Assembly (NCBI RefSeq): GCF_004010195.1
Contig: NC_057754.1
Location: 392,918 to 456,917 of the forward strand
DNA from: Chiloscyllium plagiosum
Taxonomy: Eukaryota
Direction of reading: 5' to 3'
Length of the DNA: 64,000 nucleotides
A program made the position numbers and the translations under genes. Below are positions 10,950 through 60,399 of this stretch, in pieces (within the stretch, counting starts at the first letter, position 1; the number at the start of each line of letters is the position of its first letter). The notes beneath the pieces were generated by a model. The model ran no database searches, was not told the origin of the DNA, and worked only from the letters and a program-made list of their open reading frames with translations.

Positions 10950-11610
10950 TATCAGGCCAAGTCATAGAGATACTGTGGCTACAAGATCAGGTCAGAGTTT
11001 AGGAATTCAGTAGCAAGTAACTCACCACCATATACCACTTGCAAGTCAGGACTACGAGGGAATACTCCTCACTGGCCTCGAAAAGTGCAGCTCCAACATT
11101 AGTCAAAATGTTTGACAACATTCAGCACAAAGCAACTCACTTGACTAACACACCCACAAACATTCACCAACACTTCCTGCCACTATTGATGCTCAGTGGC
11201 AGCAGTGTCTACCAGCTACAAGATGCACAGCTACAACTCATCAAGGCTGCTTGAACAACACCTTCCAAACCATGATCACTACCATGCAGAAGAAAAGGCA
11301 GCAGATACATATAATCCACCTCCAAGTCACTCACATCATGACTTAGAAAAATATTGACGCTCAGTCAAAATTCTAGCTCTCACTAATATAACTGTGGGTC
11401 TACCTACACATGGACTGCAGTAGTTCAAGAATGCATCTCAGCACTAACTATTCCAGTCTGGATTAGAGCGGTGCTGGAAAAGCACAGCAGGTCAGGCAGC
11501 ATCCTAGAAGCAGGAAAATCAATGTTTCGGGCAAAAGCCCTTCATCAGGAACTAACTATTCCAGGGCTAATGCTCGCCAATAAATACTGGCATAACCAGT
11601 GAAGCCCATG
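10950..11610 (+). mobile_element. Old LINE 3' fragment (CR1/L2 group, different family)
   Basis: Decayed QVR-x-x-EYSSLA...AAPT...DNIQHKA; homologous fragments at ~34130-34990 (+) and ~52070-56400 (-). Confidence 0.55.
11457..11550 (-). mobile_element. Short hammerhead-bearing Penelope-derived insertion with 14-bp TSD
   Basis: TSD ACTAACTATTCCAG at 11443-11456 and 11551-11564; minus strand CTGATGAAGGGCTTTTGCCCGAAACATT. Confidence 0.8.
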
Positions 11611-11677
11611 AATATTGCATGTCAATTTTCAGTAGTTACATGCTCTATTTCAGATAAAACGTCATATCAACAAAGTT

Positions 11678-11977
11678 TAGATTAGATTACCTACGGTGTG
11701 GAAACAGGCCCTTCGGCCCAACAAGTCCACACCGACCCTCTGAAGAGTAACCCTTTTCCCTCTGACTAACGCATCTAACCTCTGGGCAATTTAGCATGGC
11801 TGATTCACCTGACCTGCACATCTTTGGACTGTGGGAGGAAACCAGAGCACCCGGAGGAAACCCACACAGACATGAGGAGAATGTGCAAACTCCACACAGT
11901 CGCCCAAGGCTGAAATTGAACCTGGGATCCTGCTGCTGTGAGGCAGCAGTGCTAACTACTGAACCACCGTGCCGCCC
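11678..11977 (-). mobile_element. HE1-type SINE
   Basis: tRNA-like head, body shared with other copies, (TAATC)n tail. Confidence 0.85.
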
Positions 11978-12239
11978 CTTAAGTCAATGGTCATTATCGT
12001 CTTTCGAACTGTTCACACTATGTTTTCCTTTCTCACTGGCATTTTAAATTACCTGCTTCTCCATTTTGAAACCTGTTTTGTCCGCTTATTCTTCAGGGTA
12101 AATGGTGAATGAAAGTGATTTAAACAAATTGTGACTCTTGTTCCTCTGTATTTTTTTTTTACATTTTTTGTTCACTGAACTCTTACTGCACTTGGTTAAT
12201 ATTATATAGTTTTTAAAAGGGCTCTATTTTTTATTCAAT

Positions 12240-15200
12240 TGTTAGACGCCTTGCTGATTTTGCATTTTTAAATTTTATTCTTTTATCATTTTGGTTTGGA
12301 ACTGGGAACTGTGAGCCAAAGATGAGTTTTGGACTGTGGCTAACAGGCTTGTGTTAAAAGGAAAACAAACTAAATTGGCTTTTATTTATTCATTAACTGC
12401 AGGTTGGTTCCTAATCAAAAGATTCTGCAGATGTTTCATCACCAGAGAAGAGCATTATGTTTAAACTGATAGCAGAAGTTGGCTATCAACAAGATCAGTA
12501 CCTGGGAATTGGTTCCAGTAAGTCTGGATAAGATCTTATGCTCAAGCAGATGGCAGATGTTGAATGGTAACAGGGTTCTCCTGAAGATGGACAGTGTTTC
12601 AGGAAATGGTCAGAGTAAATGGATTTTGGACTGTGTTTTATGAGAGAAAAGGAATCTAGCTATTGATGCTACAGCATGAAAATTTGAAATCTCCGTAACC
12701 TCCCATAAACAGCTCTTGAAAGCTCAGAGAATAGAAAACTAAAGTTTCTGTATTATTGTCTTTATCTAAGTATAAAGGTGATTCTGAATGACATCTTCAG
12801 AAAATCAACCAAGAAATCATCATATAGGCCTGTGGAACAATGCATTATGGAAACCACTTAAATAATCTGGCCAGTTTTGTTATTTTCTTTTATTTATCCC
12901 TTAACTGTGTTTGTTTCTGTCCATCTTTTGTGTTAATGGAGGTGAAACAAAGGCTTTTGGGTCTATAGCATAGGCCAGTTAGATTTGGCATTTATGTTCT
13001 GCTGAAGTTACTATATTGTTAATAAATTTGAGATTTTGGAGAAAATTTGTAGCTCAGGTTGTGGATCAAGTTGTAAAGTTGCTTTCTGAAATTTTGGTAA
13101 ATGGGGTCCAAATTGATATATTTGTTGATGGAGTTCTGGTTTGAATGCCAGGCCGCTTGGAATTCCCCTGTGTGTCTTTATTTAGCCTGTCCCAGGATGG
13201 ATGTATTGTCCCAGTCGAACTGGTGTCCCTCTTCGTCTGTGTGTGTGGATACCAGTGATAGTTGGTCATATCTTTAGGTGGCTAGTTGATGCTCATGTAT
13301 CCTGGTGGATAGCTTCCTGCCCGTTTGTCCAATGTAACGTTTGTTGCAATCCTTGCAGGGTATTTTCTATATGACATTCATTCTACTGGTTTTTGGTAAC
13401 AGGGTACTTTAAATTCATCAAGAGCTGTTTCAGTGTGGTGGTAGGTTTGTGAGCTACCACGGTGCCTAGGGACCGGAGAAGTCTGGTCGTCATCTCCGAG
13501 ATGTCTTTGGTGTATAGCAGGGTGGCTAGAATCTCTGGGTGCGTTGTGTCTTATTGTTTGGGTCAGTTATGCAGGAATTGGCAGACTGCGCTTATTGGGT
13601 GCCTGTTATTCCTGAATACGGTGCATAGGTGTTTTTTCTCGGCTTCTCATAGTTCCTGGGTCTTGCGGCTTGTTTAAATAATGTCCTCAAGGAGCTCTGT
13701 TTGTGGGTGTTCGGGTAATTGCTCCTGTAGTTGAGTACCTGGTCAGTGTGTGGCTTTCCTATACAGGCTGGTCTGCAGCTCTCCATTGGCTTTACATTCA
13801 TCCTGGGACAATACATCTGTCCTGGGACAGGCTAAACAAAGACACGCATGGGAATTCCTGGAGGCCTGACATTCAAACCAGAACTCCATCAACAAACATA
13901 TAGATTTGAACCCCATTTACCAACCTCTCAGAAACAGAACGGGAAATGATATCACCTTGATGTATGTTTGCTCGCTGAGCTGGAAGGTTTGTTTTCAGAC
14001 GTTTCGTCAACATACTAGATAACATCATGACTGAGCCTCTGGATGAAGCACTGGTGGTATGGTTCGCTTTCTATTTATGTGTTTAGGTTTCCTTGCATTG
14101 GTGATGTCATTTCCTATGGTGATTCCATTTCCTGTTCTTTTTCTCAGGGATGGTAAATGGGATCCAAGTCAATGTGTTTGTTGATAGAATTCCAGTTGGA
14201 ATATCTTGCTTCTAGGAATTCTCGTACATGTCTCTGTTTGGCTTGTCCTAGAATGGATGTGTTGTCCCAGTCAAAGTGGTGTCTTTCCTCATTTGTATGT
14301 AAAGATACTAGTGGGAGTGGGTCATGTCTTTTTGTGGCTAGTTGATGTTCATGCATCCTGGTGGCTAGTTTTCTGCCTGTTTTGTTACTGTTCTTGCAAG
14401 GTATTTTGTAAATGACAATAGTTTTGCTTGTTGTCTGTATAGGATCTTTCAAGTTCATTAGCTGTCGTCTTAGTGTGTTGGTGGGTTTGTGGGCTATTAT
14501 GATGCCAAGAGGTCTGAGTAGCCTGGCATTCATTTCTGAGACGTCTTTGATGTAGGGGAGAGTGGCTAGGGTTTCTGGAATGTTTTGTCTGCTTGTTTGA
14601 GTTTGTTGCTGAGAAATCAGCAGACTGTGTTCAATGGCACCCGTTTTTTTTTAATACACTGTATAGGTGATTTTCCTCTGCTCTTCGTAGATCCTCTGTG
14701 CTGCAGTGTGAGGTGGCTCATTGAAATAATGTTTTAATGCAGCTTCGTTTGTGGGCGTTGGGATAACTGCTTCTGCAGTTCAGTATTTGCTCTGTATGTG
14801 TTGTTTTCCTGTAGACACTAGTTTGAAGTTTCTTATTGGCTGTTTGCTCTACTGCGACATCTAGGAATGGCAGTTTGTTGTTGTTTTCCTCCTCTTTTGT
14901 GAATTTTATGCCAGTAAGGGTATTATGATGGTCTTGAACGTTTCCTGTAATTTGTTTTGTTTAGTGATGACAAAGATGTCATCCATGTAGCGGACCCAAA
15001 GTTTGGGTTGGATGGTTGGCAGAGTTGTTTGTTCCAGTCTCTGCATTACTGCCTCTGCTAAGATCCTACCACAATAAACCGAGACTGATAAATAGTAAGT
15101 GGGACAGAACACCAGAGGCTCACTGGTGATGTTACCTAGCATGGTGATGAAACGTCTGAGAACAAATCTTCGACATTCTATCAGCTCAGCGAGCAAATTG

Positions 15201-15409
15201 ACAACCTGTTAATAAATTGCTAAGTCTTTTATTTAAGATACAAACTAGTGTCTGGAATTTATTATTCATAGTCTGGGATTGGTTATTCAAAAGTCTGGTT
15301 AGGAACCACTAGGGTCAATTTTGAGGCATCTCAATTTAATTTTATTGTGTTACAAACATAGAGGTAGAAAGGCTGATTTGGATTGGTTGTCTGTCTCCAT
15401 GACATAACA
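12240..15409 (+). mobile_element. Solo LTR (about 1 kb) interrupted by a Penelope composite
   Basis: Termini TGTTA...TAACA; 4-bp TSD CAAT at 12236-12239 and 15410-15413; internal AATAAA; no PBS or internal coding region seen. Confidence 0.7.
13029..15206 (-). mobile_element. Penelope-like composite (RT C-terminus plus GIY-YIG, partial tandem and inverted pseudo-LTR)
   Basis: ORF pieces WVRYMDDIFVI, KPHTDQVLNYRSNYP and VIYKIPCK...KTGRKLATRMHEH...ILGQAKQRHVREFLEA; 12-bp TSD TGTTAATAAATT at 13017-13028 and 15207-15218. Confidence 0.88.
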
Positions 15410-15424
15410 CAATGGATACTATTA

Positions 15425-15739
15425 CAGGTATCCGAAATTCTGAAATCCAAAAAGCTCCGAAATATTTTTCATAGAGTGTGGAACGTTATTTTGGCATGCA
15501 ATCAGGTGACCTAACCCCACACCCACTCAAACCACATCAATCAGATGTGACATGGCAGCGTGGCCCAGCACTGGCAGGCGTCAATTGTGTCTCAGCACTC
15601 ATACTATTCACATGTGCATCTGCTGTTAGGTAATTTTTAAAATTTCATTGTGAAAATGTCGTTTATTCCAAAATCTGAAAAATTCCGAATTCCAAAAACA
15701 ATTGGCCCCAAGGATTTCAGATAAAGGATTGTGTACCTG
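15425..15739. mobile_element. Tc1/mariner (MER46/Tigger-like) MITE
   Basis: TA|CAGGT...ACCTG|TA termini; subterminal ATCCGAAA-type repeats; end ...CCCAAGGATTTCAGATAAAGGAT resembles MER46/Tigger4 (recalled, not searched). Confidence 0.7.
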
Positions 15740-17302: not shown

Positions 17303-18032
17303 AGTCATGGAGTCATAGAGATGCACAGCACAGAAAAAGACCCTTCCATTCAACTTGTCCATGCTGACCAGATATCTAAATAAATCTAGTCCCGTTTGCC
17401 AGCAGTTGGTCCATATCTCTTTAAATCCTTCCTATTCATATGTCTATCCAGATGTCTTTTAAATGTTGTAATTGTACCAGCTTCCATCACTTCCTTTGGC
17501 AGCTCATTCCAGATGCGCACCACCTTCTGCATGAAAAAGTTGTCCCTTAGGTCCCTTTTAAATCTTTTTTCTCTCACCGTAAATTTATGCCTCTAGTTTT
17601 GGATTCCCCTACCTTTAGGAAAAGACCTTGACGACTCAGTCTAGCCATGCCCCTCATGATTTTATAAACCTCTGTAAGGTCACCACTCAGCCTCTGACGC
17701 TCCAGAGAAAATAACCCCAGCCTGTTTAGCATCTCCCTATAGCTCAAACCCTCCAATCCTGACAACATCTTTGTAAATCTTTTCTGAATCCTTTCAAGTT
17801 CCACAACATCCTCCCTATAGCAGAAAGACCAGAATTGAACAGAGTATTCCGATGCTGGTCAAACCAATGTCCTCTACATGACCTCCCAACTCCTATACTC
17901 AATGCAATGACCAATACAGGCAAGCATAAAAAACATCTTTACTATCCTGTCTACCTGCGATTCCACTTTCAAAGAACTATGAACCTGCACTCCAAGGTCT
18001 CTTTGTTCAGTAATACTCCCAGAAACTTACCA
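17303..18032 (-). mobile_element. CR1 LINE 3' end
   Basis: [33 protein letters not shown] and NFFMQKVVRIWNELP; (CTCTATGA)n tail. Confidence 0.88.
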
Positions 18033-18815
18033 ATAGTCATACAAGTGAATAAATCTGGTGACTATCCCACAATATAAAGAAATAGATTAAATGTTGGCAA
18101 TGTTACACTCTCTCTCTCACTCACTCCCTCAAATATGTTCGTATTTTCAATAATATTAGAAACCTATGATTACATTACTTCCAATAAAATTAACACTAGC
18201 ATGTAACAATGAGACAGAAGAAAATGTGATTGCCCTTCTTAGAGCAGAGAGTGTGAAGGGGAGGTTTAATTGAAGCATTCAAAATCAGGAAGAGGTCTAA
18301 TACAAAGGAAGATATTGTTTCCAGGGCAGAAAGGTTAGTAACCAGAGAGACCAAAGCTAAAGAGAATCAGCAAAAGAACAAAAGGGACAACATAGGAAGA
18401 GGGGTAAGCCATTCAGCTCTTCAAGGCTGTGCTGTCTTTCAATAAGATCATAGCTGATCATCCACTTCAATAACTCTTTCCCTTTATATTTCCTATATTT
18501 TTAAATCTATCTCTACTTTAAACAGAGCCAATAACTGAGGTTCTACAGCCCTCAAGATTATAGTTTACCAAACATTCACCACCTTCTGAGTAAATCAGAA
18601 TTTGTGTATTTCAGTTCTAAGTGGTGTTCCCCTTACTTTCAAAATTGCTTTGGACTCCCCAACCAGTGGAAATATCTTACCAGCATCTATCCTAATCATT
18701 TATGTAATTTTTAAGTTTCAATGAGATCACCTTTCATTCTTCAAAACTCTAGAAAATACAGGTCCTCTCTTCATAGGACAGTCATGTCACCCCAAGAAGA
18801 AGTCTGGTGAACCTT

Positions 18816-23500: not shown

Positions 23501-24660
23501 TTTCAACTTGCCTGACCATCTTCAGAGATTCATACACATGAACCCTGAGGTTCCTGTGCTGCTGTCGTCTCCTCAAAGTTGGACCATTGAACCTGTATAT
23601 GTCTCCATGTTCCTTCTACCAAAATGCGTTACTCCACATTTCTCTGCATCGAGATTCATCTGCCAGGTGTCTGTCCATTTGGCCAACTTATCAATGTCCC
23701 TCTCAAGTCACTCAGCATCATCCTCACAATTTAATATTCTCACTAGTTTAGTACATAAACAAATTTAGAGATTTTATCCTCAAAAGCCATCTCCATGTCG
23801 TTTATATAAATCAAAAGAAGCAAAGGTCCTAATACAAATTCCCTGGAACATCACTTTCAATTTGTTTGCAATCTGAGAAATGCCCATCTATACCTATCTG
23901 TTTCCTATCTTTCGGCCAACTTCTAATGCATGACGCCAAGAGCCTATCAATCCTGAACATTTCTAATTTGCTAACCAACAATCTTTGTGGCACAATATCA
24001 AATATTTTTCTTACCCTCTGCACCATGAACTTTTATTTTTCATATTAACCTTTTAAATGGGTGGCACAGTGGTTAACACTGCTGCCTCACAGCACCAGAG
24101 ACCCGGGTTCAATTCCCACCTCAGGCAACTGACTGTATGGAGTTTGCACATTCTCCCCGTGTCTGCGTGGGTTTCCTCCAGGTGCTCCGGTTTCCTCCCA
24201 CAGTCCAAAGATGTGCAGGACAGGTGAATTGGCTATGCTAAATTGCCCGTAGTGTTAGGTGAAGGAGTAAATGTAGGGGTATGGGTGGGTTGCACTTCGG
24301 CAGGTCGGTGTGGACTTGTTGGGCTGAAGGGCCTGTTTCCACACTGTAAGTAATCTAATCTAAAAAATGGCATCTTATCAAATGCCCATAAGCAGTTTCC
24401 TGATAACATGCTATCAGATTAACTGCCCTGTCAGTCCTTGTTTTTTCTCTTTCTTCCCTTTCTGAATAGGCATGTTACATTTGCTAAATTCCAGTCACTG
24501 GGACCGCTCAAGAATCTGAGAAATTTTGGAAAATGAGAAGCAGTGTCTCTCTGCAGCTGCCTCTTTTTTAACCTTAGGATGTTGACCATTCTGGCATGGG
24601 GACTTGTCAGCTTTTAATCCCTTACATTTTTCTAATATTTCTAATGTCAATGATTTAAAG
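20570..24660 (-). mobile_element. Stacked decayed CR1 fragments
   Basis: ORF2 pieces DKSPGPD-x-VY-x-RILWE, NVVPLFKK, VRPHLEY and FDIVP; several CR1 tails (~20575, ~20920, ~22860). Confidence 0.75.
24059..24362 (+). mobile_element. HE1-type SINE
   Basis: GGGTGGCACAGTGGTTAACACTGCTGCCTCACAGC...GGTTCAATTCC; tail TAATCTAATCTA. Confidence 0.88.
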
Positions 24661-25105: not shown

Positions 25106-25616
25106 GAAACCTGAATACAGGCTGAGGTGACTAGTTGCTGTCAGGGGCAACCATTTAACAGATGCTCTTAATAACTTAGGTGGCAACAAGATGGCTTCTT
25201 GATGCAAATAACATGACAAAATGGCTTCTAGGTTGCAAACTGACAATTCTGTGAAAGCTGCATAAAATGGTTTTTAAGTTACTCACTGCTAATTCTGCAA
25301 TAACTGCATAAGTGACTTACCACAGTCTGCTTCAATAAAGATTAGCAGACAATGTGCCCTTTAAAGCATAAAAATAAGTCAACAAGATAAGACATTACTG
25401 ACCATCCTAACTGACCTTCAAATGCAGGTGCAATAGCTCAGTGAGTGAGATAAGGATGGCCTGAGTGTTGGAAAATAAAGTTGGCTCCCAGGAAGTATCA
25501 TTGGACTAAGTAACTGTCATAGAGATGTACAACACAGAAACAGACCCTTTGGTCCAACTTGTTCATGCTGACCAGATATCCTAAATTAATCTAGTCCTAT
25601 TTAGAGTCATAGAGAT

Positions 25617-25833
25617 TTTCTTTGAGAAGATTTGTCGCTTGGATTGAGGTTCTGGATGTAGGTTTGCTCGCTGAGCTGGAAGATTCATTTGGGTTTGATG
25701 AAACCCAAACATATAAATAGAAAGCAGAAATTATCAGCAGTGCTTCGCCTGAGGCCCACTGAAGATGTTACCTAGTAGGGTGACGAAATGTCTGGAAATG
25801 AACCTTCCAGCTCAGCGATCAAACCTACATCCA
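25617..25833 (+). mobile_element. Fold-back Penelope pseudo-LTR insertion with hammerhead (family B)
   Basis: Inverted arms CTGGATGTAGGTTTGCTCGCTGAGCTGGAAG / CTTCCAGCTCAGCGATCAAACCTACATCCAG; flanked by duplicated AGAGTCATAGAGAT; core at 25759-25792. Confidence 0.8.
25756..25795 (+). ncRNA. Minimal type I hammerhead ribozyme motif (family B)
   Basis: CCA-CUGAAGA-U-GUUACC-UAGUAG-GGUGAC-GAAA-U-GUC-UGG; stem I CCA/UGG. Confidence 0.72.
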
Positions 25834-26188
25834 GAGTCATAGAGATGTACAGCACAGAAAGAGACCATTCAGCCCACCTCATCCATGCTGACCAGATATC
25901 CTAACACAATCTAGTCCCACCTGCCAGCACCTGGCCCATATCCCTCCAAACCCTTCCTATTCATATACCCATCCAAATGCCTTTTAAATGTTGCAATTAC
26001 ACCAGCCTCCACCACTTCCTCTGGCAGCTCATTCCATAAACGTATCACCCTCTGAGTGAAAAAGTTGCTCCTTAGGTCTCTTTTATATCTGTCCTCTCTC
26101 ACCCTAAACCTATGTTGGACTCCCCGACCCCAGGGAAAAGACTTTGTCTATTTGTCCTATCCATGCCCTTCATAATTTTATAAAGTCT

Positions 26189-26499
26189 GAGAGAAGATTT
26201 GTAGCTCGGGTGCTCGTTGTTCTGGTTCTGTTCGCCGAGCTGGGAATTTGTGTTGCAGACGTTTCGTGCCCTGTCTCGGTGACATCCTCAGTGCTTGGGT
26301 GCCTCCTGTGAAGCGCTTCTGTGATCTTTCCTCCGGCATTTGTAGTCCGGAAGCGGCAGATTCAAACCACTATAAATGCCGAAGGAAAGATCACAGAAGC
26401 GCTTCACAGGAGGCTCCCAAGCACTGAGGATGTCACCTCGACAGGGGACGAAACGTCTGCAACACAAATTCCCAGCTCGGCGAACAGAACCACATCAAC
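26189..26499. mobile_element. Fold-back Penelope pseudo-LTR (about 130-bp inverted arms) with a hammerhead on each strand, inserted in CR1
   Basis: Arms 26216-26346 and 26369-26499; interrupts the CR1 motif TAAA(C)CT|CTATAAGGTCACC; cores at 26255-26294 (-) and 26421-26460 (+). Confidence 0.85.
26421..26460 (+). ncRNA. Minimal type I hammerhead ribozyme motif (family B), intact core
   Basis: GCA-CUGAGGA-U-GUCACC-UCGACA-GGGGAC-GAAA-C-GUC-UGC; stem I GCA/UGC; palindromic ACGU stem III. Confidence 0.8.
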
Positions 26500-27442
26500 T
26501 CTATAAGGTCACCCCTCAGCCTCCGACGCTCCAGGGAAAACAGCCCCAGCCTGTTCAGCCTCTCCCTGTAGCTCAGATCCTCCAACCCTGGCAACATCTT
26601 TGTAAATCTTTTCTGAATCTATCAAGTTTCACAACATCTTTCTGATAGGAAGAAGACCAGAATTGCACGCAATATTCCAACAGTGGCCTAACCAATGTCC
26701 TGTACAGCCGCAACATGACCACCCAACTTCTGCACTCAATACGCTGACCAATAAAAGAAAGCATACCAAAAGCCTTCTTCACTATCCTACCCACCTGCGA
26801 CTCCACTTTCAAGGAGCTATGAACCTGCACTCCAAGGTCTCTTTGTTCAGCAACACTCCCGAAGACCTTACCATTAACTATATTACTCCTGCTAAGGTTT
26901 GCTTTCCCAAAATGCAGCACTTCACATTTAACTAAATTAAACTCCATCTGCCACTTCTCAGCCCACTGGCCCATCCGATCAAGATCCCGTTGTAATCTGA
27001 GGTAACCTTCTTCGCTGTCCACTACACCTCCAATTTTGGTGTCATCTGCAAACTTACTAACTGTACCTCTTATGCTCACATCCAAATTATTTATATAAAT
27101 GTCCAAAAGTAGAGGGCCCAGCACCGATCCTTGTGGCACTCTATTGGTCACAGGCCTCCAGTCTGAAAAGCAACCTTTCACCACCACCCTCTGTCTTCTA
27201 CCTTTGAGCCAGTTCTGTATCCGAATGGCTAGTTCTCCCTGTATTCCATGAGATGCAGCCTTGCTCACCAGTGTCCCATGGGGAACCTTGTCGAACGCCT
27301 TACTGAAGTCCAAATAGATCATCATGTCTACCGCTCTACCCTCATCAATCCTCTTTGTTACTTCCTTAAAAAATTCAATCAAGTTTGTGAGACATGGTTT
27401 CCCATGCATAAAGCCATGTTCACTATCCCTAGGCAGTACTTG

Positions 27443-37709: not shown

Positions 37710-39810
37710 ACAAAAGCAGAAACTGCTGCTGAAACTCAGTAGGTCTGGCAGCAGCTATGAGAAGAAAGCAGAGTTAACTTCTGAGTCCAGTGACTTTTCA
37801 TCAGAACTGAGAGCAGTGAGGAAAATGGTCTATTTATACTGAAGATGAGATTTGAGGGAGTGATTAGATTAGATTCCCTACAGTGTGGAACCCGGCCCTT
37901 CGGCCCAACAAGTTCACACCGACCCTCCGAAGAGCAACCCACCCAGACACATTCCCCTACATTTACTCCTAACACTATGGGCAATTTAGCTTAGCCAATT
38001 CACCTAACCTGCATATCTTTGGACTGTGGGAGGAAACCCACGCAGACACAGGGAGAATGTGCAAACTCGACACAGACAGTTGCCCGAGGTGGGAATTGAA
38101 CCCGGGTCCCTTGCACTGTGAGGCAGCAGTGCTAACCACTGAGCCACCGTGCTGTGGGAGGAGAGGTGAGCGGATACTTAGAGATGGAACCCAGAGAAAT
38201 AGAGATGTCAAAGGGATTATTGATAACAGGCTCGGACAGAGGGAATAAATGATAATGAGAGCTGACAGTAGCAGAGAAGGATTGGCTGTAATGGATCTGG
38301 GTCAACCCATCTCATGTATTTCAGTTCCCATCCCTTCTCTCCCCTCCTACAACAACAGCTTTCACATTTAAAGGATTATAAGCTGCCATTTCCACCACCT
38401 CCAGCAGGATTTTGCAACCTGACATATATTTCCTTCCCCTCCTATGTCAGCATTCTGCAGGGACTGTTCCCTCCAGGATATCCTAGTCCAATATTCCTCC
38501 AATCCCAACACCTTCGCACATCCCCAGAGAACCTTCTTACGCAATTGCAGAAAGTATGACTTGCCAATTTGCCTCTTCCCTCTTCACTATCCCAGACATA
38601 CCTTCCAGGTGCAGCAGCGATTTACTGCACTTCATTCAATCTAATCTACTGTATTCACTGTTGATAATGAGGTCTCCTCTACTCTGGAGAGACAGAATAA
38701 AGACTGGGTGATAACTTTGTAGAAAACCTACATTCTGTCTGCAAAAATGACCCCAAGCTTCCAGTTAAATACCACTTCAACACACCATCATGTTCCCATG
38801 CCAACATTTCTGTTGCAGGCATGCTGCAGTGTTCCAGTGATCGTCAGTGCAAGTTCGAAAACAGTATCTCATTTTCCGGTTGAGTTCCCTGCAGCCTCAG
38901 GGACTCAACAGTGAAGTCAAGAACTTTAGAGCCTATTTCTGCCCTTACATGTTTCTTGCCCAGCCCCACACCTTGATTCTGTCTTTACATGGGTTGCTTT
39001 CATCACAGCCTATCCATTCTTTCCTTTCTCTCAGTTCTCGTTATCCCTTATTCAGCTTCTCTTTTGTGCTGACATACTATCAATACTCTAATCCCCTCAA
39101 TCTGCCTACCACTTTCAAGTATCTCTCTCACTCTCTCTCTGGGGTCCATCTCCACGTATCTGCCCATTTCCCATAGAGTCATTCAGCATGAAAACTGACC
39201 CTTTGGTCCAACTTGTTCATGCCGACCAAGTTTCCCAAACTAAACTAGTCACATTTGACTGTGTTTGGCCCATATCCAAACCTTGGAGATAGTGAGGACT
39301 GCAGATGCTGGGAAGACAATTGATAAAACATGGAGCTGCAAAAAGCACAGCAGGTCAAGCAACATCATGATGAAGTCCTGATGAAAGGTCCTGCCCGAAA
39401 CATCGACTCTCCTACTCCTCTGATGCTGCTTGACCTGCTGTGCTTTTTCCAGTTTCACATTTTATTGCCCCATAGCTGAACCTTTCCTAATGAAGTACCT
39501 GTCCAAATGTCTTTTAAATGTTGTAACTGTACTTGTATGTACCACTTCCGCTGGCAGTTCATTCCACATATGCTCCACCCTCTATGTGAAAAAGTTGTCT
39601 CTCAGGTTCTCTTTAAATCTTTCTTTTTTCACTTTAAAAATATTCCCTATAGTTTTGAACTCCAGTACCCTAGGAAAAATTTTAGTTACTAAGAATCGAA
39701 ACGTTAACTGCTTTCTTTCTTCCCACAGATGCTGCCAGACCAGCTGAATTTCAAAAGCAATTTCTGTTTTTGTTTCAGATCTCCAGCATCCTCAGTTCTT
39801 TGTTTTATTT
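37710..39810 (+). mobile_element. Decayed Penelope-like element (inverted pseudo-LTR, GIY-YIG region) with nested SINE, CR1 tail and hammerhead mini-element
   Basis: 38300-38930 is homologous to 18900-19520; inverted pseudo-LTR at ~37710-37850; CR1 tail at ~39172-39680; hammerhead CTGATGAAAGGTCCTGCCCGAAACATC at 39378. Confidence 0.7.
37864..38155 (-). mobile_element. HE1-type SINE
   Basis: Same head, body and tail as the other copies. Confidence 0.85.
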
Positions 39811-40592: not shown

Positions 40593-49591
<8,999 letters not shown>

Positions 49592-49772
49592 AAGATCAAC
49601 ATTGAGCCCCCATCTCCACCTCTCTAAAATTCCCCTTCCAAACAGATTCATCATACCATGTGAAAATGGAAACGGAGTTCAATGTACAAGCTATCACAGC
49701 ATGTAAATTGTTGGAGAAAGCTTTGTTTGAAAGATTTCTTTCCCAAACATCCACTTATCTATATGTACTGTG

Positions 49773-51411: not shown

Positions 51412-51860
51412 GTAGAGGAGCTGGTGTTGGACTGGGGTGAACAAAGTTTATCAATCAATCACAACACCAGGTTATAGTCCAATAGGTTTATTTGGAAGCA
51501 CTAGCTTTCGGAGTTCATCCGGTAAGACCATAAGACATAATTTATAGCAAAAGATTACAGTTCCATGCAGTTGAAATGATATATTGAATGAAGATAGATT
51601 ATTGATAAGTCTTTCATCTTTTAGAATGGGTTGTGGGTTTTGGTTCATTAATATGTAATCCCCAGAACTACTTTTAAGTAACATTTTCAGCTCAGACAAT
51701 GAATATTATCATTTCAACTGCATGGCACTGTAATCTTTTGCTATAAATTGTGTCTTATGGTCCTACTTCACAACTACCTGATGAAGGAGCAGTGCTCTGA
51801 AAACTATTGCTTCCAAATAAACCTGTCAGATTATAATCTGGTGTTGTGTGATTTTTAACT
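51412..51860. mobile_element. Non-autonomous fold-back Penelope-derived element (family C) with hammerhead
   Basis: Inverted termini ACAACACCAGGTTATAGTCCAATAGGTTTATTTGGAAGCA / TGCTTCCAAATAAACCTG..ATTATAATCTGGTGTTGT; TSD TGGTCAGCTA(C/T)AGT at 51398-51411 and 51861-51874; core CTGATGA-A-GGAGC-AGT-GCTCT-GAAA at 51778. Confidence 0.75.
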
Positions 51861-51880
51861 TGGTCAGCTATAGTTCAGTG

Positions 51881-51965
51881 CTGAAAATGTGTTGCTGGAA
51901 AAGCGCAGCAGGTCAGGCAGCATCCAAGGAGCAGGAGAATTGACGTTTCGGGCATAAGCCCTTCT
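51881..51965 (-). mobile_element. 85-bp hammerhead-bearing insertion with 17-bp TSD
   Basis: TSD TCAGCTATAGTTCAGTG at 51864-51880 and 51966-51982; minus strand CTGAAGAAGGGCTTATGCCCGAAACGTC. Confidence 0.82.
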
Positions 51966-52069
51966 TCAGCTATAGTTCAGTGAGCAGCAACTCTCCTGAG
52001 TGAGATGTTGGTTCAAGTCACATTCCAGGACTTAGGTACATGATCCAGGCTGGATTACTAAGACAGTAT

Positions 52070-55000
52070 TTAAAAATTCTTTTGTGGATGTGGGTGTAGC
52101 TGGTCAGCATTTCCCATACCTAATTGCCCTGCAGAAGGTGGCATTTTTGAAGTACAGTTCTTGGAGTGCGAGAACATTCACTGCTGTTAGGAAGGGAGTT
52201 TTAGGACCATTGACCGTGAGGGAACAGCAATATATTTTGGATATTATTTGGTTTGGAGGAGAACGTAAAGGTGGTGTTCCCATGTATCTACAGCCCTCAT
52301 TGTTCTGAGAAAAGAGGTTGTGGGTTTGGAAAATGCTGTTGAGGGAAACTTGGTGAGTAGTTCTTGAGCGTCTTGTAGATGTTACACATTGCTACTGCTA
52401 TGCATCTGGTTGAAGTGAGTTAATATTGAAGGTGGATGGGTGCCAATCAAGTGGCTGCTTTGTCCTGATTAGTAGCAAGTCTCTTGACTGTATATTCATC
52501 TAGGCAAGTGGGGAGTGTTCCATCAAAGTTCTGTATTGTGCCTTTAGATGATGGGAGGCAGGAGGTGAGCTACTCAATGAAGAATTCCTAATCTCTGACC
52601 AACTGTTACAGCCACAGTGTATGTGTATATATATATATTGTTGAAGATGGTCATTGTGTGGAACTTGAGTGTGGATGTTACTTGCCACGTATCAGCTCCA
52701 GTCTGGATATTGTCTAGGTCTTGCTCTGTTTGGACATGGATTGTTTCAGTATCTGAAGAGTTCTGAATGGTGCTGAACACACAATCATCAGAAAACTTCT
52801 CAATTTCTGACTTTATGATGGACAGTCAGTCATTGATGAAGCAGTTGAAAAGGTGGACCTAGGTCACTACTGTAGAACTTAGTGATGTCATGGGACTGAT
52901 GATGACCTTTAACAACCATATCCTATTTTCCTTTGTGCTATATATGATTCTAATCATCGAGGAATTTCTTGCCTGATTCCTATTGACTCCAGTTTTGCTC
53001 TGGCTGCATGATGCCATATTAGCTCAAATGCTGCATTAAGATCAAAGGTATTCACACTCTCCTCACCTTTGGAATTCAACTCTTTTTTTCTATGAGTGAA
53101 CCAAGGCTATAATGAAGTCAGCAACAGAGTAACCAAATTGAGCATCAGTGAACAGGTTATTAATTTGCAAATATCATTAAATTGCACGGTCAACTACCCC
53201 TTCTGTTGCTTTACTGAATAGACAGTGCAGTAATTGGCTGAATTCGATTTGCCCTGTTTTGTTTTCTGTAAATACCTGGTCAGTTTTCCACATTTTCCAG
53301 CATATATGCCAATGTCAGTAACAGCTTGACCATAAGTGCAGCTTGTTTTGGAGAAAAAAACTATTGCAAGAATGATAGCTTTTGCAGTATCCAGTGCCTC
53401 TAGACATTTCCTGACACTATGTGGAATTGAGTGTAGTTAAGACAAAGATACATAGGTTCTTGATTAGTAACAAGATCAAGAGTTACAGGGAGAAGATACG
53501 AGAGGAGTTGAGAAATATATCAGCCATGGCAGAGCGGACTCAAAGGGCCAAATGGTTTAATTCTGTTTCCATGTCTTATGGACTTCTGGACCGAATTCTG
53601 AAGACTTGTATCTGTGAAGCAGTGGACCTCGGAAGGAGACAGCGATGGATCATCCATGTATAGTTCTGGCTGAAGATAAATACAAATTCTTCAGCCTTGC
53701 TGTATGCACTTGATGAGAATGAGGATATTTATGGCGCCTCCACCTCCAGTGAGTTAATTATCTGTCATCATTCATGACAATGTGTCCTTGTCACTGTTTG
53801 GTATTCAAATAGTCATCAGGTTGGTACCACGTTTTAGGTATGCCTGGTGCTGCTGTTGGGAAAGCCTGTTTGGAGAACAAATGTTGATCTCCTAGCTGGT
53901 TGGTAGTGATCGCATGGGGAGATGCCAAGCAATTGTGACTGAATATAATTCTGTTGCTGATGGCCAAAACACCTAGTAGATTGGAGGACTAGATTTGAGT
54001 TGCTAGATCTTTTTAGTGTCTTTGCCACTTAGAGTATAGAGTCATAGAGATATACAGCATGGAAACAGACCCTTCGGTCTAATCTGTCCATGCCGACCAG
54101 ATATCCCAACCCAATCTAGTCCCACCAACCAGCACCCAGCCCATATCCATCCAAACCCTTCCTATTCATATACCCATCCAAATGCCTCTTAAATGTTGCA
54201 ATTGTACCAGCCTCCATCCTCTAGCAGCTCATTCCATACATGTACCACCTTCTGCGTGAAAACGTTGCCCCTTAGTTCTCTTTTATATCTTTCCCCTCTC
54301 ACCCTAAACCTATACCCTCTAGTTCTGGACTCCCCGATCCCAGGGAAAAGACTTTGTCTATTTATCCTATCCGCCCCTCATAATTTTGTAAACCTTTATA
54401 AGGTCACCCCTCAACCTCCGGTGCTCCAGGGAAAACAGCCCCAGCCTGTTCAGCCTCTCCCTGTAACTCAAATCCTTCAACCCTGCCAACATTCTTTTGT
54501 AAATCTTTTCTGAACCCTTTCAAGTTTCACAACATCTTTCTGGTAGGAAGGAGACCAGAATTGCACGCAGTATTCCAACAGTGGCCTAACCAATGTCCTG
54601 TACAGCCGCAACATGACCTCCCAACTCCTGTACTCAATACTCTGACCAATAAAGGAAAGCATACCAAACGCCTTGTTCACTATCCTATCTACCTGCGACT
54701 CCACTTTCAAGGAGCTATTAGGACCTTACCATTAAGTGTATAAGTCCTGCTAAGATTTGCTTTCCCAAAATGCAGCACCTTGCATTTATCTGAATTAAAC
54801 TCCATTTGCCACTTCTCAGCCCATTGGCCCATCTGGTCCAGATCCTGTTGCAATCTGAGGTAACCCTCTTCGCTGGCCACTATACCTCCAATTTTGGTGT
54901 CATCTGCAAATTTACTAACTGTACCTCTTATGTTCGCATCCAAATCATTTATGTAAATGACAAAAAGTAGAGGACCCAGCACCGATCCTTGTGGCACTCC

Positions 55001-56400
55001 ACTGGTCACAGGCCTCCAGTCTGAAAAACAACCTTCCACCACCACCCTCTGTCTTATATCTTTGAGCCAGTTCTGTATCCAAATGGCTAGTTCTCCCTTT
55101 ATTCCATAAGATCTAACCTTGCTAATCAGTCTCCCATGGGGAACCTTGTCGAACACCTTACTGAAGTCCATATAGATCACATCTACTGCTCTGCCCTCAT
55201 CAATCCTCTTTGTTACTTCTTCAAAAAACTCAATCAAGTTTGTGAGACATGATTTTGGAAAGTCCTTGCATTTCCAAATACATGTACATCCTGTCCCTCA
55301 GGATTCCCTCCAACAACTTGCCCACCACTGAGGTCAGGCTCACCGGTCTATAGTTCCCTGGCTTGTCTTTACCGCCCTTCTTCAACAGCGGCACCACGTT
55401 TGCCAACCTCCAGTCTTCCGGCACCTCACCTGTGACTATCGATGATACAAATATCTCAGCAAGAGGCCCAGCAATCACTTCTCTAGCTTCCCACAGACTG
55501 GTAGTGCCACACACCATGAATGTTATCCTCACAGTGAAGACAGGACTTAATCTTATCAAGGACTGCACAGTGATCACTCTTACCAATACTATCATGAACA
55601 GATACACTTGGGGCAGGTAGATGAGGGCAATAAGTTTTTAACCTCTTGGTTCCCTCACCACCAGCTGCCGAGCCAGTCTAACGGAAATGTTCTTTAAGAC
55701 TTTGCCAGCTTAGCTGATCTTGGTCCTATTGCACCATCTTTTGTGACAGACATTGAAATTGGCCACCCAGAATACATTCAGTACCTTTGCCATTCTCAGT
55801 CCTTCCTCCAAGCAATGGTCAACAGGGAGGAGTATCAATTCATTAGCTGGGGGGTGGGGAGGGAGTTGTACGTGGTAATCAGCAGGAGGTTACCTTGCCA
55901 GCGTTTGACCAGAAACTATAAATCTTCATGGGGTTCAAAATCAACATTGAAGCTTCCAGGGCAACTACCTCCTGTGCCACAGTGCCTTCAACTCTGATAG
56001 GTCTATTCTACTAATGTGACAGCATATATTCAGGAATGCTGATGATGGTGTCTGAGACATTGTCTTTAAAGTATGATTCCAAAAGAATGACTGTACCAGA
56101 CTATTGCTTGTCTCGTCTAAGGTACATCTCCACTAATTTTGGCACAAGCCCCAGATATTGATTAGTACTATTTTACAGGGTCAACTGGGCTTGGTTTGTC
56201 ATGCTCATTTCCAGTGCCTAAGTTGATGCCAGGTGATCTATTCAGTTTTGATCCTTTCTTTAGGCTTTATACAACTGAGTGACTTACAGTTAAGCGTCAA
56301 CCACATTGCTGAAGCGTCTGAAATCACAAACAGATCCCAAATGAACCATCAATTTATGACAACTAGATCCTGGCTACAGATGAGTTTCCAGATGGGTTAC
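52070..56400 (-). mobile_element. Long decayed LINE (CR1/L2 group) with nested CR1s
   Basis: QDLDNIQTGADTWQV and MEHSPLA motifs; same family as ~10950-11610. Confidence 0.55.
54031..55496 (-). mobile_element. Young 5'-truncated CR1 LINE (same family as 27443-32275), with a small internal deletion at ~54718
   Basis: ORFs 54477-55607: PGNYRPVSLTSVVGKLLEGIL, YMDFSKVFDKVPH, GVPQGSVLGPLLF and KFADDTKIGG; (CTCTATGA)n tail. Confidence 0.92.
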
Positions 56401-56933
56401 CCCGCATTGTCAAGCTCCTGGATGAGGGGAGATGAACCCTTCTTTATTCATTCGCATCATCCAGTTAGTAGCAACAAGTTTAGTTTATGGTGCATTTTCT
56501 CTTTCTCTGCCCATTCTTGTGAATAATTATCATACCAAATAAATTTATTAAAAGAAGGCAATTTAATGACGTTTTCTTGAATGAACAAAATAAACATGTT
56601 TATTAATGACTAAATATGATAATAATAAAACAATATACATACATAGATTAGAAATGAGAAGTGGGTCCAAAATAACATTAATGTTAAGAGACAAACTGAT
56701 CTGTCTCAGTGGGTTATTGGGAAGTGTGGAACTGTGATAATTGAGCAGTCAATTTAGAGATATAACAGAAACTCTTATTCTCTCTCTTTCCTTCTGACTA
56801 ACTTGATGGCAAACTTGTAGCACTTTGTGCAGAATGTTCTTTACCTATGATGCAGGGGTTGACTAATGGATGTTTCTTCAAGTGTGACCTTCATAGTACA
56901 CTAGTACTTGAAACAGGCTAGTATACACAAGTA

Positions 56934-57134
56934 CTGAAAATGTGTTGCTGGAAAACCGCAGCAGGTCAGGCAGCATCCAAGGAACAGGAGAATCGACATT
57001 TCGGGCATAAGCCCTTCTTCAGGACTTATGCCCGAAACGTCGATTCTCCTGTTCCTTGGATGCTGCCTGACCTGCGCTTTTCCAGCAACACATTTTCAGC
57101 TCTGATCTCCAGCATCTGCAGTCCTCACTTTCTC
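56934..57134. mobile_element. 201-bp fold-back hammerhead-bearing insertion with 16-bp TSD
   Basis: TSD CTAGTATACACAAGTA at 56918-56933 and 57135-57150; inverted arms of about 75 bp; core at 56995-57022 (-). Confidence 0.85.
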
Positions 57135-58011
57135 CTAGTATACACAAGTATCTTAGTTCACTAGCACAAGAAGCTCAGAACAGGATTGAACTAGCTTTTA
57201 ATCCCTCATTCTTGTGTATTCTTGAAAAGTAAAGGCAAAAAGCATGTCTATTGCTCAGACCATTTTTTTCTCCCATCATATTCACTGAGAACTTTCTGGA
57301 GATTACAGTTTACATACATGAGGTTATTTACATACCTCCCTTTAACTACATCCTTTTGAAGGTTCCTTGACACTTCAGGTGTAATATTCTATGGTCACTT
57401 TCCAGATAGCCACTGAATTTACATCTGCAAGAGCTTTTGATACTCCTTTTTATATAAAAATACGATTAAAAATGAAGATGTTAGTACGTAATTCAGGATC
57501 CCTCTGTAATCATGACACCAGCTATGGCAGATATCCTTTCTTAAAGAGGATTCATGGAAATCCTGCCAATGTAGTATACTTACAACTTTCAAAAGGCATT
57601 CAATAAGGTGCCATACATGTTAACAGTCAAGTAAAGGACATTAGCATGGATAAGAACTGGTTTGTGGACAAGGACTAAGAATTAGAGAAAAATAGGGTGT
57701 TTTTAAGTTGGCAGGCTGCAATTAGTGGGATGTGGCAAGAATCAGTGGTGTGGGCTCAGCTATATACAATCTTTATTCATTACTTGGGTAAAGAGACAGA
57801 GTAACGTATATGCATTTACAGGATGCAAAGCTAAGTGGAAATGCAAGCTGTGGATGGAAAAGACTCAATTAAGTGACTGGGCAACACAATGGCAGAAGTA
57901 TGAGGTTATTTAGCTTAGTGATAAAAACAGAAACCCAGAATATTTTTTAAAAGATTGAAACTTGTGAATGTTCATGTTCAGAAAGACTTTAGTATGTAGT
58001 ATACTAATAGA

Positions 58012-58124
58012 GGAGAAAGTGAGGACTGCAGATGCTGGAGAAGAGCTTATGCCCGAAACGTCGATTCTCCTGTTCCTTGGATGCTGCCTGACCTGCTGCG
58101 CTTTTCCAGCAACACATTTTCAGC
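58012..58124 (+). mobile_element. Short family A insertion with 14-bp TSD and 5' inversion
   Basis: TSD AGTATACTAATAGA at 57998-58011 and 58125-58138; hammerhead core truncated (only GCTTATGCCCGAAACGTC remains). Confidence 0.8.
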
Positions 58125-60399
58125 AGTATACTAATAGAACCTTCCTACATCTAGTAGGTAGTATAACAAGCAATGAAGAGAGTAAATAGTAAATGGAAAA
58201 CAGCTGGCCTTTATTGTAAAGGGATCCAAGTACAAGAATTGGAGTCTTACAATTGTTGACCCCTGAATTTAAGGAAAGAAAGAGTTGTATTGGACAGAAA
58301 ATAGAATCAGCAAGTCTTCACCAGATTAGTCCCTGGCAAATGGGAGTTGTCCTTCAATAAAAGGCTGAATAAATTATGTTTTATCTTGCGTGTTAAACCA
58401 ATATTGCTACACACGCAATGAGTTACCAGTCTGGACTATCTCAGGCTGTGGGTGTCTGCACATATTGTCCCTGAAGCTACTCTCTCATTTTCTGTAAGGA
58501 CATTTATTCAATTCCTTATGCACTGTAACACTATTTACATCTGTACATTGCAGATTCTCAGTCTAGAATGACCATTCAAAGAGAGAGTTCTTACTTTACA
58601 AGACTAGAGAGCTGTCTTCTCTTTTATTGATGTTGGAGTCATGTGATCAGTTATCATCATGGTTTACATGAACCTCATTGTGCTTTACACTCATCTATAT
58701 TCTCTGGAATGTTTTAGAATGAGAAGCGATCTCTGAAGCATAAGATTCTAATGGGGTGAAAACTAAGTTATTGTTTCCCCTAATTGTAAATTCTAAAACA
58801 TGAGGGCAGAGTCTCAGGAAAAGAGGTCAATTATAAAGGACTAAAGTGAAGATAAGTTTCTTTATTCAAAAGGTTATGACTCTTCAGTTTCCATCATCTC
58901 TTTGTAGATGGAAGTCACTTATCTAGTTTCCTTTTCTGGGAACTTGACTATGAAAATTGAATGCTAGCCTGCATAATCATAATCAGATTTCAAAATAATT
59001 CCAGCGCTGTAAAGTGCTTCATCTGTCCAGTGCCCAGATCATAAGCCTGACTCTCCACTAGACTTTCCAGCAAAATGAACTGTAATTCTTTGATGCTGCT
59101 GATGTTTTTCATGCCAGGCGAAGGAAGATGAATCCAAGCATGGTTACATAGAAGTGTGCAATTCAGTCCCTCAAGCTTGCTCCATCATTTTAAATCATGG
59201 CTTATAATCTACCTCAAAGTTATTCTCCTCTGCTAACTCCATATCCTTTTTATCATAATTATCTAGAAATCTACTGATTTTTCTCGAATTTACTTAATCA
59301 CTGAATTTCAACAGCATCCAATGGTAGAGAATTCCAAAGATTCACCAGCTTCCAAATGAAGGTTTTCAGCCTTATCTTAGTTCTAAATGGTATGAATTAA
59401 ATTGGCTGAAAACTGGCATTTGTGATTCTGTGGCCCTCTGGACAAGGTCAAGATTAGTCATCCACTTGGCACTTCTGCCCGAAGATTATTTCAAATGTTT
59501 CAGCGGTATCGTTTTGTACTGACCTGCTGGGTGCTCCCATCATCGAGGTTGAAGATACTTCTGGTGTTTCTAAATGTTTGAAATTCCAGAGAACACAGGT
59601 TCTATCTCTTCAATCTCTCCTCGCAGGTCAATCCTACTATCCCACGAGTTAGATTAATGAATTTCCTCCTTGGTAAGCATGGAATACAAATCTAGTATGA
59701 TTGTACATTATGTAAGCTCTTTCATAAGTGTAATAAAAGCGACAACACTGCCAGCTATACAAAAATGCAAAAGTTTTATTTTTATTGAGCATCTTCAGCT
59801 CAGTGTATCAGCATTGTTCACCATTAGAAATGAGTTGTTTCATCCTCTTGAAGCTCTTTCTCCTATCTACTTGATGGTAGTTGATCTGAACCTCCAGTTT
59901 ATTCACTCCTATTTTCTTCATATCCTCCGATACGCTTACGCGAGGGAAGAAAAGACGACCCACTTCGGCCTGCAAAAATCTATCTTTGATCAGCTCCTAT
60001 TTGTCAATGTTACTCTGATAAGATTTCAGTGAATTTGTCTACAACTAGTTTTAGATTGGCAGGTCTACAGTCATCTAGTTTCTCTGTCCCTTTTTAAATA
60101 ACAGTGATACTTCCATTAACCAATTCTGAAGCACAATTCCTGAATTTAGAGATCTTTGCAAAATACTGACTATAACACATCTTGAACTTCTTCCTCGATC
60201 TCACTGGAGCTGGGATAGTTGACCCGAAGAAAATCTCCAAGGCTTAGAAGGATCCGCAAAACATATCAAATGGAAGTGCATGTGAAGGAAGCAAGAATGT
60301 CTGCATGCTGATGCTGAGGTCACAAACAGGAGGGCATTAAGTTTGTGACTTCACAGTGTGCAAAAACCAAACTGCCAGCTCACATCCTCCACCTTCACA

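What the first reader, a model, noticed from the sequence alone, without database searches (positions are those of the whole stretch)
11443..58138. Ultra-short (85-200 bp) ribozyme-only mobile units with long TSDs: a candidate retrozyme-like non-autonomous family
Seen: five insertions made of little more than the family A hammerhead and its 3' flank, each bounded by a precise 14-17 bp direct duplication. They are 11457-11550 (14 bp), 44128-44222 (15 bp), 51881-51965 (17 bp), 56934-57134 (16 bp) and 58012-58124 (14 bp). In three of them one boundary falls within about 4 nt of the CUGAnGA core. None has tRNA A/B boxes, a poly(A) tail or coding sequence. Inference: they are either extreme 5' truncations of Penelope that preferentially stop at the structured ribozyme, or a dedicated non-autonomous family mobilised by Penelope RT/GIY-YIG, analogous to the non-LTR retrozymes described in other animals.
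Basis: partly seen in the sequence, partly recalled or inferred. Interest (0 to 1): 0.75.

Follow-up and report, generated by a model that had tools for sequence, protein, structure and literature searches.

The report
Penelope stubs ending at RNA cap
These five 85-201-base inserts are real but are stubs of a Penelope-type jumping gene, not a separate ribozyme-only element; they likely arise when the element's enzyme starts copying 95 or 130 bases from the capped front end of its own RNA and runs off it, which would show how this poorly understood class inserts.

Summary
All five inserts and their 14-17-bp duplications are exactly as stated. They are not a dedicated retrozyme family. The same sequence sits at both ends of an autonomous Neptune-type Penelope-like element (PLE). 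Short and long copies interleave on a tree, with no diagnostic mutation. Two of the five are head-to-head, one lacks an intact core, none is tandem, and ends avoid the cleavage site.

The ends are not random either. 3' ends fall at two sites about 35 nt apart, and 42 of 43 inverted inserts have one of each. Of 178 arms reaching position 16, 131 stop within 27 nt at the hammerhead's front edge. An initiator-like TCATTCC lies there, and 3,897 of 6,477 non-reference bases before its A are G, as expected from a copied cap.

Best model (inferred): internal priming on the RNA's 5' copy of the tail, run-off at the cap, one cDNA per nicked strand. No RNA start was observed directly, and one subfamily (A2) may start further upstream. 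The scan reported the same reading before on other pieces of this genome. Verdict: by-product of a known class, useful as a record of its mechanism.

The parts
11443..11456 (.). left target-site duplication, 14 bp (right copy 11551-11564)
11457..11550 (-). direct stub of an older subfamily (A2/A3-like), reference 4 to about 95-97; CUGAUGA core at 11548-11542; short 3' end (site 1)
44113..44127 (.). left duplication, 15 bp (right copy 44223-44237)
44128..44222 (+). direct stub, reference 3 to 97; core at 44131-44137; site 1 end
51864..51880 (.). left duplication, 17 bp (right copy 51966-51982, whose end supplies CTGA of the core by microhomology)
51881..51965 (-). direct stub of young subfamily A1, reference 10 to 94; site 1 end
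56918..56933 (.). left duplication, 16 bp (right copy 57135-57150)
56934..57024 (-). left arm of head-to-head insert, reference 4 to 94 (site 1 end), with core
57025..57134 (+). right arm, reference about 13-17 to 129 (site 2 end, carries the 35-nt tail), no core
57998..58011 (.). left duplication, 14 bp (right copy 58125-58138)
58012..58042 (-). left arm: tail only, reference 100 to 130 (site 2 end)
58043..58124 (+). right arm from about stem II to reference 95 (site 1 end); no intact CUGAnGA
1719..1850 (-). further A1 arm with hammerhead and full tail, used as the coordinate reference; followed by an inverted junction and an N gap
233..372 (+). older, longer arm of the same family with upstream 3'-UTR sequence and tail
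39282..39467 (.). older head-to-head insert of the same family, one tail end and one short end; no duplication above 7 bp found

Best explanation
The five inserts are stubs of an autonomous Neptune-type Penelope-like element, likely made afresh at each insertion when the element's enzyme primes on the 5' copy of its tail and runs off the capped start of its RNA. Shown: the hammerhead-plus-tail block lies before the ORF and again after the GIY-YIG domain; 3' ends fall at about 95 and about 130; inverted inserts carry one of each; 5' ends pile up at the hammerhead's front edge with an excess G before the A of TCATTCC. Inferred: that A is a polymerase II start 4 nt upstream of the core; the GIY-YIG nuclease nicks the two strands about 14-16 nt apart; each nick primes a cDNA, one at site 2 and one at site 1; the cDNAs reach the cap after 130 or 95 nt. 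They are then joined to the target (direct stub), to each other by short homologies (head-to-head insert), or, rarely, jump into the ORF start and copy to the cap again (mini-dimer). Hammerhead cleavage would play no part in forming them.
For: Parent element: block before the ORF start (L068, L171-L230) and after a GIY-YIG domain (L040; PF01541 E 3.5e-05) that has the CX4CxxC linker; RT PF00078 and a DKG motif in A2 copies. 3' ends: 88 of 105 duplication-defined ends lie at 92-102 or 126-135. 42 of 43 inverted inserts with a duplication of 10 bp or more have one long and one short end (p 5e-12 against 0.5); the 43rd reads 130/94. 5' ends: 131 of 178 arms that reach position 16 end between -10 and 16 (0.027 per nt, against 0.002-0.007 in all other bins); 49 of 80 young A1/A1b arms. 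Extra G: 3,897 of 6,477 exact matches with a non-C base at position 1 have G; expected 28-30% from genome composition and 38-47% from the opposite arm. Controls by hand count of the first 100 rows: 14 G at position 6; 36 G to 64 A at the cleavage site, against 60 G, 26 A, 14 T at position 1. None of 42 fetched loci continues into A1 upstream sequence. In 14 of 20 A1 mini-dimers the 3' unit starts at -5 to +4 while the ORF-side breakpoint varies from 63 to 301; 15 of 20 lie inside one duplication. Literature: two internal RT start sites bounding the tail, both strands cut and extended, uncleaved RNA as the main template (PMC11167929); pLTR holds the start site (PMC8557442); untemplated G as cap signature in L1 and SVA (PMC4859970).
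Against: No RNA start was seen. The one usable RNA run (X21, poly(A) single-cell, organism label A, not shown to be this species) gave reads on both strands with unrelated flanks and no pile-up of molecule ends. The 5' peak is 27 nt wide, many arms run 1-6 nt upstream of the A, and 16,821 exact matches keep the reference C. Some G's in inverted junctions can be read as templated by the other arm. In subfamily A2 the mini-dimer junctions cluster at -66 to -76 (9 of the 21 printed) rather than at +2, and A2 was not tested for an extra G. The initiator consensus YYANWYY is recalled and short. 22 of 257 arms were dropped as censored by N or record ends, and some low-identity arms belong to more distant families.
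Confidence: 0.7

Rival explanations
1. Priming occurs on the 3' copy of the tail and the reverse transcriptase stalls or falls off at the hammerhead (structure, bound protein, or a hairpin in the new cDNA): ordinary 5' truncation with a hot spot.
For: 5' truncation is typical of PLEs (PMC8557442). The peak coincides with the ribozyme and is 27 nt wide. 47 of 178 arms pass through it.
Against: A stall should fall on the 3' side of a stem (positions 26-40), but the peak is at -10 to 16. Stem II is 4 bp and the inserts fold no better than shuffles (z -0.7 to -1.3 for the inserts). Stalling does not predict the G excess at one position. ORF-linked 5' copies often stop at the same edge.
Confidence: 0.14
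2. A dedicated non-autonomous retrozyme- or SINE-like family: short copies are transcribed and re-mobilised in trans by the PLE protein.
For: No coding sequence, long duplications and very high copy number (257 arms in 1.39 Mb). A stub that starts at position 2 would hold any internal promoter and both start sites. PLE ends can act in trans (PMC3846280).
Against: 112 short and 40 long arms need 31 label changes on the tree against a shuffled mean of 34.6 (38 of 500 shuffles as low), two identical sets hold both kinds, and no column passes p 0.02 among 276 tests (only 80 columns, so power is limited). Inverted junctions differ from copy to copy. Purines before the cleavage site occur in 600 matches against 42,393 with C, G or T, so ends do not map there. 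In the Anolis element RNA downstream of the start sites is required (PMC11167929), and the stubs lack it.
Confidence: 0.08
3. The head-to-head forms arise by self-priming or fold-back on one strand or on an antisense template, as proposed for rotifer Penelope; direct stubs arise by deletion or recombination.
For: Proposed in PMC3846280. Some junctions look like fold-back on the GAA/TTC match (e.g. L110).
Against: It does not explain why both outer ends are the two RT start sites, one each, in 42 of 43 cases, nor an extra G on the sense strand. Exact 14-17-bp duplications around the direct stubs argue against later deletion.
Confidence: 0.08

Closest known systems
Insertion units of endonuclease-positive PLEs (Neptune type): pLTR, adjacent inverted 5'-truncated copy, 30-40-bp tail at one end, duplication (PMC8557442, PMC3846280; passages read)
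   Same: Same end sequence as the autonomous element, inverted arrangement, one-sided 35-nt tail, target-site duplication.
   Different: Here the whole insert is 85-201 bp with no ORF, and such stubs are the majority: 48 of 61 inverted inserts span 260 bp or less. The 5' ends are focused and carry an excess G, which the passages I read do not describe.
PAc (Poseidon of Anolis) in vitro mechanism (PMC11167929; main text read)
   Same: Two internal RT start sites bounding the tail, both strands nicked and extended, uncleaved RNA as template.
   Different: Different clade. The paper does not link the two start sites to the two nicks and does not report run-off stubs or a cap G in the text read.
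Minimal hammerheads of metazoan PLEs (PMC4209133; results and discussion read)
   Same: Type I core with an extra base between 9 and 10.1, palindromic ACGU in place of helix III, short helix I; mostly single, dispersed, thought to be truncated PLEs.
   Different: Helix II is only 4 bp here; this work gives a reason for the dispersed singles.
Non-LTR retrozymes (PMC7229834, passages; bioRxiv 10.64898/2026.07.22.740005, parts 1-3 of 5)
   Same: Non-coding, type I hammerhead, PLE-related, duplications longer than 4 bp.
   Different: Retrozymes are head-to-tail tandems of 150-450-bp units with at least two hammerheads, expressed as unit-length and circular RNA. These five are monomers or head-to-head and their ends ignore the cleavage site. 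The rare mini-dimers come closer.
L1 twin priming and the untemplated 5' G of full-length L1 and SVA (PMC4859970; passages)
   Same: Second nick primes a second cDNA and gives an inversion; G marks a copied cap.
   Different: Here both primings use fixed internal sites 35 nt apart near the RNA's 5' end, so the two arms overlap in sequence.

Membership tests
Non-LTR retrozyme | At least two consecutive head-to-tail units, each with a type I hammerhead | tested here: not met
   Three monomers and two head-to-head inserts; one lacks a core
Non-LTR retrozyme | Canonical hammerhead with about 6-bp helix I and loop contacts | tested here: not met
   Minimal motif; only the 4-bp stem II recurs in the folds; no Rfam hammerhead at E<=1
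Non-LTR retrozyme | Unit defined by self-cleavage | tested here: not met
   3 of 80 young arms start at 31-37; 600 purine against 42,393 C/G/T matches before position 34
Non-LTR retrozyme | Propagates as its own lineage | tested here: not met
   Short and long arms interleave, identical rows shared, no diagnostic column (80 columns only)
Non-LTR retrozyme | Unit-length linear and circular RNA | not testable with these tools
   Only a poly(A) single-cell run was usable; it cannot show small or circular RNA
Non-LTR retrozyme | Non-coding, duplication longer than 4 bp | tested here: met
EN+ PLE insertion (Neptune type) | Hammerhead-bearing repeat at both ends of an RT + C-terminal GIY-YIG ORF | tested here: met
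   RT and GIY-YIG were scored in different copies because full-length copies are gapped
EN+ PLE insertion (Neptune type) | CX2-5CxxC linker and two cysteines inside GIY-YIG; DKG motif | tested here: met
   L040 translation, L080; features as given in PMC8557442
EN+ PLE insertion (Neptune type) | 30-40-bp tail at one end; inverted truncated copy; duplication | tested here: met
   42 of 43 inverted inserts
EN+ PLE insertion (Neptune type) | RT falls in the Neptune rather than the Nematis clade | not tested
   No protein tree with reference elements was built; both clades have the linker
tRNA- or 7SL-derived SINE | A/B boxes and A-rich tail | tested here: not met

The most novel reading that the evidence does not exclude
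The run-off cDNA is a PLE counterpart of retroviral strong-stop DNA. Every insertion begins 95 or 130 nt from the cap, and long copies need a transfer to the repeat at the RNA's 3' end (cap to hammerhead cut site). Stubs are failed transfers. Mini-dimers are mis-transfers into the ORF start, which put two hammerheads 200-430 nt apart in one step and so seed non-LTR retrozymes.
Probability: 0.2. Interest if true: 0.78.

Novelty: new variant of a known kind. Interest (0 to 1): 0.45.

Why it matters
How PLEs make their inverted ends, one-sided tail and partial tandems is still open (PMC8557442, PMC11167929). These stubs give thousands of natural reaction products. They tie the two RT start sites to the two nicks, place the likely RNA start 4 nt before the hammerhead, and argue that cleavage is not needed for insertion. 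Each point can be tested in the existing in vitro system. Practically, dispersed 'monomer retrozymes' counted in vertebrate genomes may often be such dead-end stubs and not a family.

Tried and rejected
DNA search of G000 with the 85-nt insert found nothing because common words are skipped; uninformative. Rfam found no hammerhead; its microRNA hits are palindromes. The first Pfam scan hit nothing in four ORF pieces; correct frames scored. No RNA holder was listed. X22 laid 0 reads (no test). X21 showed copies embedded in other transcripts, on both strands; its loose ends at position 2 mirror the genomic boundary and are not evidence of a start site. An apparent bump of 5' ends at 31-37 (19 of 235) is mostly distant families and alignment drift, with 3 of 80 in young arms. 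Transfer between subfamilies was looked for: 7 matches of A2 upstream joined to an A1 hammerhead against 8,674 normal A2, and no clear switch among 51 long arms; this neither supports nor excludes transfer within one RNA. An excised-intron template was considered because the tail ends in a branch-point-like CTCAC, a pyrimidine run and TAG, and set aside: there is no GT donor at the 5' boundary. Literature searches for a cap G or template jump in Penelope gave 0 papers with 4 of 5 terms; searches gave no description of such stubs in their listings. Subscription papers (Arkhipova 2006, Schostak 2008, Lunse 2017) were not seen, nor were supplements (bioRxiv closed; Fig. S2 of PMC11167929 not opened), so prior description is not excluded.
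Full report
Observation. All five inserts and their duplications are at the stated coordinates: 94, 95, 85, 201 and 113 bp with exact repeats of 14, 15, 17, 16 and 14 bp. Only 7 of 1,936 random window pairs gave a repeat that long. I number positions on a real copy (window 1850 to 1719, minus strand): core CUGAAGA 6-12, stem II 14-25, GAAA 26-29, predicted cut after 33. The three direct inserts span 4-95, 3-97 and 10-94. The other two are head-to-head: 56934-57134 has arms 4-94 and about 15-129, and 58012-58124 has arms 100-130 and about 15-95 with no intact core. The motif has the traits published for minimal PLE hammerheads: an extra base after position 9 and a palindrome in place of helix III (PMC4209133).

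Parent element. A protein search with the RT fragment at window 2381-2761 gave 26,243 candidates, 150 scored. In the fetched loci the hammerhead-plus-tail block lies just before an ORF start and again after the ORF. In L040 it follows a GIY-YIG domain (PF01541) preceded by a CX4CxxC linker, the mark of Neptune and Nematis elements (PMC8557442). RT (PF00078) and DKG were scored in A2 copies. Full-length copies are mostly gapped, so RT and nuclease were not scored in one copy, and no clade tree was built. Earlier AI notes call the host a shark; I did not test that.

Sample. I fetched 140 stretches of 10 kb chosen by position (60 on the window's contig, 80 on nine large contigs). With the window this is 1,386,887 non-N bases holding 257 arms of the family, which group into 61 inverted pairs and 135 single arms. 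22 arms were censored by N or record ends, leaving 235.

3' ends. Of 105 ends fixed by a duplication, 39 lie at 92-102 and 49 at 126-135. These are the two ends of a 35-nt tail, as for the two internal RT start sites of the Anolis element (PMC11167929). Of 43 inverted inserts with a duplication of 10 bp or more, 42 have one long and one short end. The exception was mis-called and reads 130/94. Of the 18 pairs with a shorter or no duplication, 11 were long/short and 7 short/short by alignment ends. The long end is tight; the short end ranges from 40 to 102. Duplications peak at 14-15 bp.

5' ends. Of 178 arms that reach position 16, 131 end between -10 and 16, a rate of 0.027 per nt against 0.002-0.007 elsewhere. 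So the truncation is not random. It is not at the cleavage site: 3 of 80 young arms start at 31-37, and genome-wide 600 exact matches have a purine before position 34 against 42,393 with C, G or T. Positions 0 to 6 read TCATTCC, which fits the initiator consensus YYANWYY (recalled) with the A at position 2. Genome-wide, 16,821 exact matches keep the reference C before that A and 6,477 do not; 3,897 of the latter have G. Expected shares are 28-30% from genome composition and 38-47% from the opposite arm. At position 6 the share is 14 of the first 100 rows (hand count). None of 42 fetched loci of this kind continues into A1 upstream sequence, so they are ends and not a G-bearing subfamily. An untemplated G is the accepted sign of a copied cap in L1 and SVA (PMC4859970), and the PLE start site lies in the pLTR (PMC8557442). 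Against a single sharp start: the peak is broad, many arms extend 1-6 nt further, some G's may come from the other arm, and A2 junctions cluster near -72.

No separate family. For 154 arms covering the region (112 short, 40 long, 2 intermediate), short and long are mixed in every subfamily. The tree needs 31 label changes against 34.6 for shuffles, two identical sets hold both kinds, and no column passes p 0.02. The alignment has only 80 columns and the bootstrap had not settled, so a small short-only clade is not excluded. Junctions differ from insert to insert.

Mini-dimers. Searching the tail-ORF junction gave 670 (A1) and 687 (A2) exact matches. Most of the 60 loci fetched are not full length. 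They read hammerhead, tail, some tens to a few hundred nt of ORF start, then a second hammerhead-tail unit. In 14 of 20 A1 cases the second unit starts at -5 to +4, several with the extra G, while the ORF-side break varies from 63 to 301; 15 of 20 sit within one duplication. They look like independent template jumps after run-off. They are rare: ORF-start sequence was hit in 4 of the 141 sample records.

Mechanism. Shown: shared sequence with the autonomous element, two 3' sites, the one-of-each rule, the focused 5' end, the G excess, and the lack of a short-copy lineage. Inferred: a capped RNA starting at position 2; two nicks 14-16 nt apart; priming at 130 from one nick and at about 95 from the other, on the 5' copy of the tail; run-off at the cap; joining by short homologies, as in the CTGA shared by 51881 and its target. 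In 58012-58124 the site 2 arm stops at about 100, as if it met the site 1 priming on the same RNA. In 56934-57134 it passes through, which needs strand displacement or a second RNA. Whether long copies come from priming on the 3' copy, from a circle, or from transfer of the run-off cDNA is open; transfers between subfamilies are rare.

RNA. No holder was on record as RNA. One poly(A) single-cell run under another holder's species label gave reads on both strands with unrelated flanks and no pile-up of ends. This tests neither the start site nor circular RNA.

Comparison. Inverted pLTR, one-sided tail and dispersed single hammerheads are described for PLEs (PMC8557442, PMC3846280, PMC4209133). 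Retrozymes are defined as tandems and proposed to derive from pLTRs (PMC7229834; bioRxiv 10.64898/2026.07.22.740005). The five inserts fail four testable retrozyme features and meet the PLE ones. I found no description of the cap G or the one-of-each rule, but key subscription papers and supplements were not seen. I recorded my reading before looking; eight earlier notes of this scan on other pieces of the same genome then showed much the same reading, and two more describe two-unit stubs. They are unchecked and not independent support.

Papers seen: 10.64898/2026.07.22.740005 parts 1-3 of 5; PMC11167929 parts 1-2 of 4; PMC4209133 parts 1-2 of 4; passages only of PMC8557442, PMC7229834, PMC3846280 and PMC4859970; others as search listings.

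Verdict. Real, non-random, a by-product of a known class. New variant of a known kind; interest 0.45, for what it makes testable about PLE integration.

Noticed in passing
window 25603-25846: A second hammerhead family (core CUGAAGA...GUGACGAAA at 25759-25788) forms a head-to-head insert inside a 14-bp duplication (25603/25833), apparently with a longer tail on one arm only; it is interrupted near 25690.
   Followed up: partly
window 26184-26500: Head-to-head insert of a related family with hammerheads at 26291 (-) and 26424 (+) and a long central palindrome (the Rfam MIR6234 hit at 26301-26414); no duplication above 5 bp found.
   Followed up: partly
window 13956-15197 and 44537-45821: Longer Penelope copies of the second family with a GIY-YIG-like ORF piece at 14144-14650 (-) that looks Poseidon-like (recalled, no Pfam hit); 44537-45821 has an 11-bp duplication.
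   Followed up: partly
window 51765-51860: A third hammerhead family (CUGAUGAAGGAGCAG...GAAA at 51778-51802) ends just before the duplication of the 51881 insert.
   Followed up: no
L171-L230, tail-ORF junction: The tail ends in CTCAC, a pyrimidine run and TAG, like a 3' splice site, about 35 nt before the ATG; the ORF start holds TTCCTTGAAGAAG, close to the hammerhead's TTCCTGAAGAAG.
   Followed up: no
L216/L217 (G000:C1:38441793-38445107): Three A2 hammerhead-tail units head to tail with two different ORF-side junctions, the closest thing to a retrozyme array seen.
   Followed up: partly
L226 1517-2016: About ten tandem copies of a 34-bp piece of the ORF start inside an A2 mini-dimer.
   Followed up: no
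L258 1240-1650: A2 upstream sequence joined to an A1 hammerhead arm and then an A2 tail; 7 such junctions genome-wide.
   Followed up: partly
L014 7787-8364: Two separate head-to-head A1 inserts lie about 60 bp apart, each with its own duplication.
   Followed up: no
window 11674-11977, 24060-24363, 31370-31683, 37864-38154, 63330-63655: A dispersed repeat of about 300 bp, SINE-like in size; CR1-like LINE pieces at 17304-18035, 26499-29339 and 54036-55497 (names recalled).
   Followed up: no
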